Shown: positions 3,006 to 3,566 of the stretch, piece after piece
How the letters are laid out: each line of letters begins with the position of its first letter
How positions within the stretch are numbered: the stretch's first letter is position 1
Virus record (IMG/VR): IMGVR_UViG_2778261389_000001
Coordinates: 1 to 4,849 of that record
Length of the DNA stretch: 4,849 bases
Reading direction: 5' to 3' (one strand)
Source: a virus
Lineage: Duplodnaviria > Heunggongvirae > Uroviricota > Caudoviricetes
Program-made: the position numbers and the translations under genes
The notes under the pieces: model-generated
Told to the model about the DNA's origin: nothing
Seen by the model: the letters and a program-made list of their open reading frames with translations, nothing else
Databases searched by the model: none

Positions 3006-3248
3006 CTATAGTCCCCCATTTGGATTGAACAGCTGAAAGGTACGGTTTTCGCCTTCCTGCGTTGATACATCGCGGAATGTTGTCACATACCACTCGATCC
3101 ATTCGTTGGCCTGCTTCATCGTCCAGTTCCAGTTAACCTTGCTCAGTTCCTGGACAAACCGCTGTGTGGTGACAGTCTGCCGGCCATTCGGTTCCTGCCG
3201 TATCGAAGCATACCAGGCCATTTCAATATCGCTGCGTCGTGGCATCAT
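3006..3248 (-). CDS. Small Trp-rich protein of unknown function (80 aa), first gene of the LexA-box operon, translationally coupled to the UmuD'-like gene
   Basis: ATGATG start at 3243-3248 preceded by a GAGAGGG ribosome-binding site; the track ORF 3006-3317 begins 23 codons further upstream, inside the promoter and LexA box. No family recognised by eye; its size and position before a UmuD homolog recall impC of plasmid impCAB operons (unverified). Confidence 0.65.
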   Translation of the reverse strand: MMPRRSDIEMAWYASIRQEPNGRQTVTTQRFVQELSKVNWNWTMKQANEWIEWYVTTFRDVSTQEGENRTFQLFNPNGGL

Positions 3249-3259
3249 TACGCCCTCTC

Positions 3260-3288
3260 TTGAATACCGGATAAAAACACAGTATAAA
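3260..3288 (+). promoter_or_regulatory. Sigma-70 promoter for the dinI-like gene (TTGAAT - 17 bp - TATAAA)
   Basis: -35 TTGAAT at 3260-3265, 17-bp spacer, -10 TATAAA at 3283-3288; GAGG ribosome-binding site at 3311-3314; ATG at 3324. Confidence 0.5.
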
Positions 3289-3308
3289 TACTGTATATCC
3301 ATCCAGTA
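3289..3308. promoter_or_regulatory. LexA (SOS) box-like palindrome shared by divergent promoters
   Basis: TACTGTATATCCATCCAGTA matches about 17/20 of the consensus TACTGTATATATATACAGTA, with the CTGT-N8-CCAG variant form that I recall for the E. coli dinI box; it overlaps the -10/+1 region of the plus-strand promoter and the -35/-10 spacer of the minus-strand promoter. Confidence 0.65.
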
Positions 3309-3323
3309 AAGAGGCAATGCGCA

Positions 3324-3566
3324 ATGTTCGTGGAACTCGTTTATGACAAAAGGAATTTTGATGGACTGCCCGGTGCAAAAGATATCATTCCGGGCGAGTT
3401 AACTAAGAGGGTTCACCGGATTTTCCCCGATGCTGATGTTCGGGTTAAACCGATGATGACACTGCCGGCGATCAACACTGACGCCAGCAAGCACGAGAAG
3501 GAACGGATCAGTGCAGTAGTCCAGGAAATGTTTGAAGAGGCTGAATTTTGGTTAGTGAGTGAGTAA
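3324..3566 (+). CDS. dinI: DinI-family protein (80 aa)
   Basis: Aligns with E. coli DinI as recalled along its length: GELTKRVHRIFPD versus GELSRRIQYAFPD, and KHEKERISAVVQEMFEEAEFWLVSE versus KEDKQRISEILQETWESADDWFVSE, including the ...VSE terminus. DinI-like genes are common prophage cargo. Confidence 0.9.
   Translation: MFVELVYDKRNFDGLPGAKDIIPGELTKRVHRIFPDADVRVKPMMTLPAINTDASKHEKERISAVVQEMFEEAEFWLVSE

What the first reader, a model, noticed from the sequence alone, without database searches (positions are those of the whole stretch)
3243..3330. Single LexA-box-like palindrome controlling divergent promoters for a DinI-like gene and a UmuD'-like operon
An 82-bp divergent control region holds one 20-bp palindrome, TACTGTATATCCATCCAGTA, positioned to occlude both a plus-strand promoter (TTGAAT-17-TATAAA, dinI-like) and a minus-strand promoter (small protein plus UmuD'-like). 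That would make a compact SOS-inducible cassette encoding two RecA/UmuD-pathway modulators. A nested second palindrome ACAGTATAAATACTGT (3279-3294) overlaps the -10 element and could be a second operator or coincidence.
Basis: partly seen in the sequence, partly recalled or inferred. Interest (0 to 1): 0.6.

Follow-up and report, generated by a model that had tools for sequence, protein, structure and literature searches.

The report
SOS-controlled prophage dinI / humD cassette
The palindrome is a genuine, strongly conserved binding site for the DNA-damage repressor LexA, sitting between a prophage DinI-like gene and a small-gene/UmuD'-like (HumD) operon; the same arrangement is already annotated in phages phiKO2 and P1, so it is an ordinary new copy of a known kind.

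Summary
TACTGTATATCCATCCAGTA lies at 3289-3308 in the 78-bp (not 82-bp) gap between a DinI-like gene (3324-3566, +) and a small ORF plus a HumD-family UmuD' gene (3245-3006 and 3003-2614, -). On a heterology-index-style matrix it scores 2.4, as good as the best E. coli SOS boxes. None of 200 shuffles came close. Its CTG/CAG triplets are kept in 62 of 63 distinct homologous control regions.

"Single" box is not quite right. A second, weakened LexA box (TACCGGATAAAAACACAGTA, 3265-3284) lies 4 bp away. It sits where relatives without a divergent dinI keep their only LexA box. In 13 of 63 relatives it has an intact CAG.

The control region is homologous to phiKO2 gp22/gp23, whose GenBank record annotates the same LexA site and the same promoters. 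P1 humD and the Gifsy dinI genes are further precedents. No LexA binding or induction was tested here.

The least-known part is the 79-aa protein upstream of humD. It has a predicted winged-helix fold, no family assignment, and is nearly always linked to humD-like genes (once to umuC).

Verdict: new member of a known kind, low interest.

The parts
3289..3308 (.). LexA box A (strong): TACTGTATATCCATCCAGTA. It ends 15 bp before the dinI-like ATG.
   Evidence: Sequence. HI-style score 2.4, the best in the window, with 0 of 200 shuffles at or below 8.0. CTG and CAG are intact in 62 of 63 distinct homologous control regions. The outer 5+5 positions are 99% conserved, against 82-84% for the two flanking 5'UTR stretches.
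3265..3284 (.). LexA box B (weakened): TACCGGATAAAAACACAGTA on the + strand, TACTGTGTTTTTATCCGGTA on the - strand. One triplet is CGG/CCG instead of CAG/CTG.
   Evidence: HI-style score 7.6, better than all 200 shuffles. It starts at -39 from the small-ORF ATG, the position of the only strong box in relatives that lack a divergent dinI, including P1 humD. 13 of 63 distinct homologous regions have an intact CAG here (scores 0.4-5.9); 47 of 63 have CGG.
3260..3288 (+). Inferred sigma-70 promoter of the dinI-like gene: TTGAAT-17-TATAAA. The start site is predicted near 3295, inside box A.
   Evidence: Sequence. The -35 is kept in 57 of 63 relatives and the -10 region in 58 of 63. phiKO2 has TTGACA and TATAAA at the homologous positions. 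Not called by the scan tool because the -10 lacks T6. No start-site data.
3281..3310 (-). Inferred sigma-70 promoter of the small-ORF/humD operon: TTTACT-18-TATACT. Box A covers the -35 and spacer; box B covers the region from the -10 to about +15.
   Evidence: The only promoter-like site reported in 2500-3700. TTTACT and TATACT are each kept in 58 of 63 relatives. The same hexamers are present in phiKO2.
3324..3566 (+). DinI-like gene (80 aa).
   Evidence: Pfam DinI: 66.4 bits, cut-off 24.2. It aligns to E. coli DinI structure 1GHH, including the C-terminal acidic helix. It falls below the NCBIfam chromosomal-DinI equivalog cut-off, 43 against 111. 78% identical to phiKO2 gp22.
3578..3626 (+). 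Intrinsic terminator after the dinI-like gene: hairpin 3578-3615 followed by AUUUUUAUUUU.
   Evidence: RNA fold of -16.4 kcal/mol, z = -2.3, with 3 of 200 shuffles as stable. It makes dinI a single-gene transcription unit.
3006..3245 (-). Small ORF (79 aa; an alternative ATG lies at 3248). Family phrog_3893, function unknown, predicted winged-helix fold. First gene of the minus-strand operon.
2614..3003 (-). HumD-family UmuD' homologue (129 aa), encoded already in the 'cleaved' form.
   Evidence: NCBIfam HumD equivalog: 221.5 bits, cut-off 120, full length. Residue 2 aligns with Gly25, the first residue of UmuD' (1UMU). 70% identical to P1 HumD.
2582..2597 (.). GC-rich hairpin just downstream of humD. 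The T-run lies on the + strand only.
   Evidence: Terminator scan. The fold of the minus-strand RNA is not better than shuffles, z = -0.8, so termination of the humD transcript here is uncertain.

Best explanation
The 78-bp region is the SOS operator/promoter module of a prophage accessory ('moron') cassette. The cassette lies beyond the tail-fibre genes of a prophage with Mu-like tail and baseplate genes.

Two sigma-70 promoters fire in opposite directions. Their -10 hexamers overlap: TATAAA at 3283-3288 on the + strand and TATACT at 3286-3281 on the - strand. Two LexA boxes flank this -10 core.

- Box A (3289-3308) is consensus-grade. It covers the predicted start site of the dinI-like gene, and the -35 and spacer of the small-ORF/humD promoter.
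- Box B (3265-3284) is weakened by a CAG-to-CGG change. It covers the spacer of the dinI promoter, and the region from the -10 to about +15 of the small-ORF/humD promoter.

In undamaged cells host LexA, mainly at box A, would shut both promoters. When RecA-stimulated LexA self-cleavage removes it, both units would be transcribed.
- One unit gives a DinI-like RecA-filament modulator, closed by its own terminator.
- The other gives a small winged-helix protein plus HumD. HumD is a UmuD' made without any need for RecA-mediated cleavage. In phage P1 it is reported to work with host UmuC.

Shown here: the sequence features, their scores, their conservation, and their homology to annotated phage loci.
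Inferred: the promoter assignments, LexA occupancy, induction, and any cooperation between the two boxes.
For: Box quality:
- Box A scores 2.4, which would rank about fifth among 31 E. coli sites. Box B scores 7.6. The best of 200 shuffles scored 8.06.

Conservation of position:
- 23 of 26 control regions upstream of small-ORF homologues carry a box scoring 4.6 or better. These come from Citrobacter, Klebsiella, Raoultella, Erwinia, Pantoea and phages.
- In the loci without a divergent dinI the box starts 31-43 bp before the ATG. P1, N15 and HK639 humD have one at -39, -34 and -37.

Conservation within the window's own family (63 distinct control regions from 78 loci):
- Box A CTG/CAG is kept in 62 of 63. 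Its outer half-sites are 99% conserved, against 82-84% for the adjacent 5'UTRs.
- Box B has an intact CAG in 13 of 63, in several sequence backgrounds. This shows it is a real second operator that is degenerate in the window's variant.

Promoters:
- TTTACT-18-TATACT is found by the scan.
- All four hexamers are conserved in 57-58 of 63 regions.

Precedents:
- The phiKO2 record annotates a LexA site plus overlapping -10 and -35 signals for divergent genes 22 (DinI-like) and 23 (UmuD-like). Its sequence aligns with the window's region.
- The P1 record annotates a 'LexA binding site in the regulatory region of lxr and humD'.
- Gifsy prophage dinI homologues have LexA boxes 19 bp from the ATG and rise 14-23-fold with nalidixic acid (PMC8072944). 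Replacing the Gifsy-2 LexA-box segment abolishes mitomycin C induction (PMC3121763).
- uvrA and ssb share one LexA box (PMC8072944).

Gene identities.
Against: - There are no experimental data for this locus or for its close relatives: no LexA binding, no mapped start sites, no induction.
It correlates with published heterology indices (Spearman 0.79) but is not the published matrix.
- The + strand -10 (TATAAA) lacks the highly conserved T6, and the tool does not call it.
- Box B carries a change in the triplet that matters most for LexA binding (established knowledge from operator-constitutive mutants). 47 of 63 relatives share that change, so it may be vestigial and conserved only because it overlaps promoter elements.
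- The two boxes are 24 bp apart centre to centre, about 2.3 helical turns. That is not the 21-bp spacing of the two lexA-gene boxes, so cooperative binding is not implied.
- The 63 sequences are closely related, so the conservation contrasts are not independent samples.
Confidence: 0.8

Rival explanations
1. One functional LexA operator (box A) is shared by both promoters. Box B is a dead relic, and its conserved TACTGT half is kept only as part of the -10 region.
For: - Box B has CGG in place of CAG in 47 of 63 distinct relatives.
- In phiKO2 the distal half of box B is gone altogether (score 20.3), while box A is perfect and the divergent genes remain.
- HK225-type relatives (L006, L091) have only one box between dinI and the small gene.
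- uvrA/ssb is a precedent for one shared box (PMC8072944).
Against: - Box B still scores 7.6, within the range of functional E. coli sites in the same matrix such as dinB, ydjM and ftsK.
- Variants with an intact CAG persist in several sequence backgrounds.
- The distal half of box B is more conserved (91%) than the adjacent 5'UTRs (82-84%).
Confidence: 0.35
2. The central palindrome ACAGTATAAATACTGT (3279-3294) is an operator for a phage-encoded regulator, for example the small winged-helix protein acting on its own promoter. It would work in addition to, or instead of, LexA.
For: - The 16-mer is almost invariant: the -10 core is identical in 58 of 63 relatives.
- The small protein is predicted to have a winged-helix fold of the kind typical of DNA-binding proteins.
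Against: - The same palindrome is equally conserved in the 42 loci that lack the small gene, and in phiKO2, which also lacks it.
- It is fully accounted for by two LexA half-sites and two -10 hexamers.
- Two relatives have a 2-bp deletion in its centre (L079, L095). That would disrupt a dimer site but is tolerated by promoter spacing.
- Loci without dinI keep the small gene but have no such palindrome, only one LexA box.
Confidence: 0.05
3. The cassette is the SOS-sensing induction switch of the prophage. The small protein would be a LexA-controlled antirepressor, like Gifsy GfoA/GftA, phage 186 Tum or N15 AntC, rather than a repair or mutagenesis accessory.
For: - LexA-controlled small antirepressors are encoded next to dinI homologues in Gifsy prophages, and are fused to a DinI-like half in 186 Tum (PMC3121763).
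- The small protein is of similar size, under LexA control, and of unknown function.
Against: - The small gene is cleanly absent from half of otherwise near-identical cassettes (42 against 42 loci).
- It travels with humD-like genes across unrelated phage types: phiES15, Erwinia phage Midgardsormr38 and Mu-like-tail prophages. It occurs once directly upstream of umuC. An immunity-specific antirepressor would not be expected to do this.
- tblastn of the small protein against the phage collection matched only 46 records. Neither the organism tallies nor the 30 rows listed show phage 186, N15 or a Salmonella phage.
Confidence: 0.08
4. A chance palindrome in AT-rich intergenic DNA with no regulatory role.
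For: The minimal pattern CTGT-N9-CAG occurs by chance in about a third of shuffled windows.
Against: - The full 20-mer score was never approached in 200 shuffles.
- Position and half-sites are conserved across genera and phage types.
- The flanking genes are classic SOS-regulon types.
Confidence: 0.01

Closest known systems
Klebsiella linear plasmid-prophage phiKO2, genes 22 (DinI-like) and 23 (UmuD-like), with an annotated LexA site (GenBank AY374448)
   Same: The genes are divergent homologues: DinI is 78% identical and HumD 67%. The gap between them is 77 bp. Box A is at the same place (TACTGTATGCATATACAGTA). The central ACAGTATTTATACTGT is identical. The -10 hexamers TATAAA and TATACT are the same, as is the -35 TTTACT.
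   Different: phiKO2 has no small ORF, so humD follows the control region directly. Its box B distal half is lost. Its dinI -35 is a perfect TTGACA. The element is a linear plasmid-prophage with a siphovirus tail, not a prophage with Mu-like tail genes. The regulatory features in the record are displaced by 18 bp from the motifs they evidently describe (my inference).
Bacteriophage P1 lxr / humD region
   Same: humD is 70% identical, already in the UmuD' form, and has no adjacent umuC. An annotated LexA box, TACTGTATAAATGAACAGTA, starts at -39 from the humD ATG. That is the same distance as box B from the first ATG of the window's operon. From my own knowledge: McLenigan et al. 1999 (J Bacteriol 181:7005; listed in the references seen) reported that HumD can replace UmuD' and binds UmuC and RecA filaments.
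   Different: The divergent partner in P1 is lxr (190 aa, unrelated), not dinI. There is one box. There is no small ORF.
LexA-controlled dinI operons of Salmonella Gifsy-1, -2 and -3 prophages
   Same: A prophage dinI homologue has a LexA box just upstream of the ATG: 19 bp there, 15 bp here. Induction there is shown experimentally (PMC3121763; PMC8072944).
   Different: In Gifsy, dinI is followed by an antirepressor gene and irsA in one operon. Here dinI is followed by a terminator, and the neighbour is divergent.
E. coli uvrA/ssb, and tandem LexA boxes (lexA, recN, colicin genes)
   Same: One LexA box shared by divergent genes (uvrA/ssb; PMC8072944). Two or more boxes in one control region (lexA and recN are listed with 2-3 boxes).
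   Different: Here both features are combined in 78 bp with overlapping -10 hexamers. The box spacing is 24 bp centre to centre.

Membership tests
LexA operator (enterobacterial SOS box) | CTG-N10-CAG core with an AT-rich centre (consensus TACTG(TA)5CAGTA) | tested here: met
   Box A, TACTGTATATCCATCCAGTA at 3289-3308, is met. Box B at 3265-3284 is not met: it has CCG where CTG is required.
LexA operator (enterobacterial SOS box) | Heterology index within the range of bound sites | tested here: met
   On an HI-style matrix from 31 E. coli sites, box A scores 2.4 and box B 7.6. Known sites span 0.9-10.6 and the shuffle minimum was 8.06. The matrix was rebuilt from memory and is not the published Lewis 1994 table.
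LexA operator (enterobacterial SOS box) | Overlaps the promoter or transcription start of the regulated gene | tested here: inconclusive
   It overlaps both consensus-predicted promoters. No start-site data are available.
LexA operator (enterobacterial SOS box) | LexA binding, and derepression on DNA damage | not testable with these tools
   Needs a gel shift or footprint and reporter or RNA measurements.
HumD family (phage UmuD' homologues) | S24/UmuD fold with sequence membership above the curated cut-off | tested here: met
   NCBIfam NF051876 HumD equivalog: 221.5 bits against 120, matched 1-129 of 129. Pfam Peptidase_S24. UmuD' structures 1UMU and 1I4V at E = 1e-23.
HumD family (phage UmuD' homologues) | Encoded without the N-terminal arm: starts at the Cys24/Gly25 cleavage position | tested here: met
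   Met-Gly-Phe-Pro-Ser-Pro-Ala, with residue 2 aligned to UmuD' residue 1.
HumD family (phage UmuD' homologues) | No cognate umuC in the operon | tested here: met
   The gene downstream is a flagellin. No UmuC-like ORF was found in the window or in the longer source-like contigs.
HumD family (phage UmuD' homologues) | Substitutes for UmuD' in mutagenesis; binds UmuC and RecA filaments | not testable with these tools
   Known only for P1 HumD (McLenigan 1999, my own knowledge).
DinI family | DinI domain with the C-terminal acidic helix | tested here: met
   Pfam PF06183: 66.4 bits against 24.2. It aligns to 1GHH through ...EEAEFWLVSE / ...ESADDWFVSE.
DinI family | Ortholog of chromosomal DinI (NCBIfam equivalog) | tested here: not met
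   43.2 bits against a cut-off of 111. It is a prophage DinI-like paralogue, not the chromosomal gene.
phiKO2-type divergent dinI / humD SOS cassette | Homologous control region with a LexA box and overlapping divergent promoters between the dinI-like and humD-like genes | tested here: met
   Alignment of 63 control regions that includes phiKO2 (L009), and the record annotation.

The most novel reading that the evidence does not exclude
The 79-aa winged-helix protein encoded between the operator and humD may be an uncharacterised, LexA-controlled partner of the UmuD'/UmuC (Pol V-type) pathway. It may even be the detached N-terminal module of a LexA/UmuD-like ancestor split at the cleavage site.

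Its conserved C-terminus, ...RTFQLFNPNGGL, ends 2 nt before HumD's M-GFPSPA. It resembles the UmuD arm ...VTFPLFSDLVQC|GFPSPA.

It is nearly always followed by a humD-like gene, occasionally fused to one, and in one genome sits directly upstream of umuC.
Probability: 0.25. Interest if true: 0.55.

Novelty: new member of a known kind. Interest (0 to 1): 0.25.

Why it matters
It shows that a common class of enterobacterial prophages places two modulators of the RecA/Pol V pathway under direct host SOS control. Relatives of this HumD occur in at least 363 IMG/VR contigs, and matches to the cassette region occur in 233 of 5,426 complete E. coli genomes. One modulator is a DinI-like protein. The other is a UmuD' that needs no activating cleavage. 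Together they could alter mutagenesis and damage tolerance of lysogens. This is already implied by the phiKO2, P1 and Gifsy work, so the window adds a further example rather than a new principle.

Two details are worth a specialist's look:
- The natural CAG/CGG polymorphism of the second operator, a ready-made series for studying graded SOS control of divergent promoters.
- The unstudied small protein that accompanies humD.

Tried and rejected
- Rfam scan of the whole window at E <= 1: three weak matches far below gathering scores, none at the control region.
- RNA fold of the predicted dinI 5'UTR: no structure, z = +0.4.
- Fold of the RNA downstream of humD: not better than shuffles.
- The nested palindrome scored as a LexA site: 41.6, rejected.
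- PDB sequence search for the small protein: nothing.
- Foldseek against the PDB: only E > 0.2.
- hhalign of the small-protein profile against LexA: nothing.
- hhalign against UmuD: only RTFQLFN aligned with VTFPLFS, E = 0.24, not significant. The 'split UmuD/LexA' idea therefore stays a hint.
- Profile search of 1.84 billion representative proteins: 173 hits, all short. The few fusions to HumD look partly like frameshifted gene calls, so there is no evidence for a widespread full-length fused family.
- Papers not held: Casjens 2004 (phiKO2), Lobocka 2004 (P1 genome), McLenigan 1999. A search for 'TFPLF' found nothing relevant, so the statement that TFPLF is the clamp-binding motif of UmuD rests on my memory only.

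Full report
**Anatomy of the window**

From left to right the window holds:
- the end of an IS1 copy (1-381);
- a flagellin gene (603-2229, minus strand);
- a 129-aa S24-family ORF (2614-3003, minus);
- a 79-aa ORF (3006-3245, minus);
- a 78-bp gap;
- an 80-aa ORF (3324-3566, plus);
- about 390 bp with no convincing gene;
- a tail-fibre assembly gene (3962-4411, minus) and the end of a tail-fibre gene.

The 129-aa protein is a full-length match to the NCBIfam HumD equivalog (221.5 bits, cut-off 120). Its second residue aligns with Gly25 of UmuD, the first residue of UmuD'. It is therefore a UmuD' encoded ready-made, as in phage P1 (70% identity).

The 80-aa protein is a DinI-family member (Pfam 66 bits). 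It aligns with E. coli DinI through the C-terminal acidic helix. It is a prophage paralogue rather than the chromosomal ortholog.

The 79-aa protein belongs to PHROG 3893, of unknown function. It has no Pfam, NCBIfam or PDB sequence match.

Exact-protein look-up places the cassette at the end of a prophage with Mu-like baseplate and tail genes. That prophage lies next to yecD-aspS-ruvCAB. The window is 99.98% identical to an NCBI assembly contig.

The host is not E. coli. The cassette reaches at most 89% identity to any of 5,426 complete E. coli genomes, and the flagellin segment at most about 87%. The closest species representatives are Citrobacter braakii and C. portucalensis.

**Checking the observation**

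The 20-mer TACTGTATATCCATCCAGTA is at 3289-3308. The hexamers TTGAAT (3260-3265) and TATAAA (3283-3288) are 17 bp apart. The palindrome ACAGTATAAATACTGT is at 3279-3294. The gap between the start codons is 78 bp, not 82.

The bare CTGT-N9-CAG pattern is not unusual: 72 of 200 shuffles have one. I therefore scored all 20-mers with a heterology-index-style matrix built from 31 E. coli LexA sites. The scores correlate with the published indices reproduced in PMC11228462 (Spearman 0.79).
- The site scores 2.4, better than sulA or recA in the same matrix.
- The best value in 200 shuffled windows was 8.06.
- The next best site in the window is TACCGGATAAAAACACAGTA at 3265-3284, with 7.6. That also beats every shuffle.
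- Nothing else in the window scores below 14.
Its geometry is CAG-N8-CTG, the reverse of a LexA box.

**Comparative evidence**

I collected three sets of related loci:
- 20 loci from species-representative genomes, using the small protein as query;
- 80 of at least 363 viral contigs, using HumD as query;
- annotated phage loci.

In loci where the small gene or humD has no divergent dinI, exactly one strong LexA box starts 31-43 bp before the first ATG. These include phiES15, Midgardsormr38, Erwinia, Raoultella, Klebsiella and Pantoea. In P1, N15 and HK639 the box starts at -39, -34 and -37.

In the window's own family the -39 position is occupied by the weaker site, which I call box B. The strong site, box A, lies 24 bp further on, next to dinI.

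Among 63 distinct control regions of this family:
- Box A keeps CTG and CAG in 62.
- Its outer half-sites are 99% conserved, against 82-84% for the two 5'UTR stretches.
- Box B has an intact CAG in 13, with scores of 0.4-5.9, in several sequence backgrounds.
- Box B has CGG in 47.

So the region contains two tandem LexA operators, and the second is degenerate in the window's variant. The 'nested palindrome' is simply the inner half-site of B (ACAGTA), four bases, and the inner half-site of A (TACTGT).

**Promoters**

The scan tool finds one promoter-like site in 2500-3700. It is TTTACT-18-TATACT on the minus strand (3310-3281).

The plus-strand TTGAAT-17-TATAAA is not called, because TATAAA lacks T6. 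However, its hexamers are conserved in 57-58 of 63 relatives, and phiKO2 has TTGACA/TATAAA at the same positions.

The two -10 hexamers overlap on opposite strands between the two boxes.
- Box A covers the predicted dinI start and the -35 and spacer of the other promoter.
- Box B does the converse.

A hairpin with a U-run (3578-3626) closes the dinI unit.

All promoter and start-site statements are inferences from consensus and conservation.

**Comparison with what is known**

- The phiKO2 GenBank record annotates a LexA binding site and overlapping -10/-35 signals for divergent genes 22 (DinI-like) and 23 (UmuD-like).
- The phiKO2 sequence aligns with the window's control region and shares box A, the central 16-mer and the hexamers.
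- The phiKO2 feature coordinates are displaced 18 bp from the motifs. This is my inference.
- The P1 record annotates a LexA site for lxr and humD.
- HK225 has dinI and a small-protein homologue diverging from a single box.
- Gifsy prophage dinI homologues are experimentally LexA-controlled (PMC3121763; PMC8072944).
- uvrA and ssb share a box.

The window is thus a further member of a described kind. It differs in three ways:
- it has the extra small gene;
- it retains a weakened second operator;
- it sits in a prophage with Mu-like tail genes that also carries a flagellin locus.

**The small protein**

AlphaFold2 with 39 homologues gives a confident model (mean pLDDT 85). It has a helix, a beta hairpin, two more helices and a beta wing.
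- Foldseek against the PDB finds nothing significant.

A profile search of 1.84 billion representative proteins finds only 173 relatives, all short. NCBI records call the family 'DNA polymerase V'. I found no experimental basis for that name.

What links it to humD:
- It is followed within a few nucleotides by a humD-like gene in most related loci.
- In one genome it sits behind a LexA box and directly upstream of a umuC-like gene.
- A few database entries are in-frame fusions with HumD.
- It is cleanly absent from half of otherwise identical cassettes.

Its conserved tail, RTFQLFNPNGGL, resembles the UmuD arm VTFPLFSDLVQC that precedes GFPSPA. The alignment is not significant (E = 0.24). I record this as the most novel reading that the evidence leaves open.

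**Verdict**

'Single box' should read 'one strong and one weakened LexA box'. The nested palindrome is not a separate operator. LexA binding and induction remain untested.

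Noticed in passing
window 1-512: An IS1 end (its inverted repeat ends at 381) truncates a FljA-like 'repressor of phase-1 flagellin' gene that starts at 512 on the minus strand. Only 44 codons remain. A related contig carries the intact 179-aa gene (L114 3183-3722).
   Followed up: partly
window 603-2303; L112 and L114: A flagellin gene lies directly downstream of humD at the end of a prophage with Mu-like tail genes, beside yecD-aspS-ruvCAB. A sigma-28-like TAAAGTTT-N11-GACGATAA lies on the minus strand at about 2277-2303. 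In relatives a FljA-like repressor gene follows the flagellin. This looks like a phage-borne second flagellin locus. No complete E. coli genome matches it at more than about 87%.
   Followed up: partly
window 3003-3248, compared with L002 and L042: The small gene shows a clean presence/absence polymorphism with the same control region and ribosome-binding site. With the gene the sequence reads ...GCGTAA|TGATGCC...TATAGCC|ATGGGC. Without it the sequence reads ...GCGTAA|AC|ATGGGC. The two forms are equally common, 42 against 42 loci.
   Followed up: partly
L116 3852-5360 (ENA ERZ1332972): A LexA box (TACTGTTTATCCATACAGTA) is followed by a small-protein homologue and then directly by a umuC-like gene, with no umuD in between. 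This is a single example in an error-prone assembly.
   Followed up: partly
window 3006-3040 and 2998-3003: The small protein ends ...RTFQLFNPNGGL, 2 nt before HumD's M-GFPSPA. This resembles the UmuD arm ...VTFPLFSDLVQC|GFPSPA. hhalign aligns only these 7 residues, at E = 0.24.
   Followed up: partly
L009 1353-1502 (phiKO2, AY374448): The LexA-site and promoter features in the GenBank record lie 18 bp to the right of the motifs they evidently describe. The -35 of gene 23 is off by a further 100 bp.
   Followed up: yes
L112 13410-13720: A second dinI-like gene (82 aa) lies beyond the flagellin/fljA-like genes at the island boundary. It has its own LexA-like box, AACTGGTTATTTGTACAGTG, which resembles the reverse complement of the E. 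coli dinI box as I recall it.
   Followed up: no
window 2510-2597: On the + strand there is a sigma-28-like motif (TAAATTAG-N11-GCCGATAC), followed about 45 bp later by a strong hairpin and T-run (2582-2597). It may be a remnant of a divergent fliD-type promoter carried along with the flagellin gene. The hairpin lies just after the humD stop codon but is oriented for the opposite strand.
   Followed up: no
window 3567-3961: About 390 bp between the dinI terminator and the tail-fibre assembly gene hold no recognisable gene. The 60-aa ORF at 3637-3819 (minus) has no family hit. The weak Rfam hits here are far below threshold.
   Followed up: partly
alignment A1 (HumD family): At the position that MAFFT aligns with the UmuD catalytic Ser60, the close HumD homologues have Ser or Thr. 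At Lys97 they mostly have Lys, with Met in HK639 and L017. HMMER instead aligns the window's His with Ser60. Either way the self-cleavage dyad is not strictly kept, as expected for a protein that needs no cleavage.
   Followed up: partly
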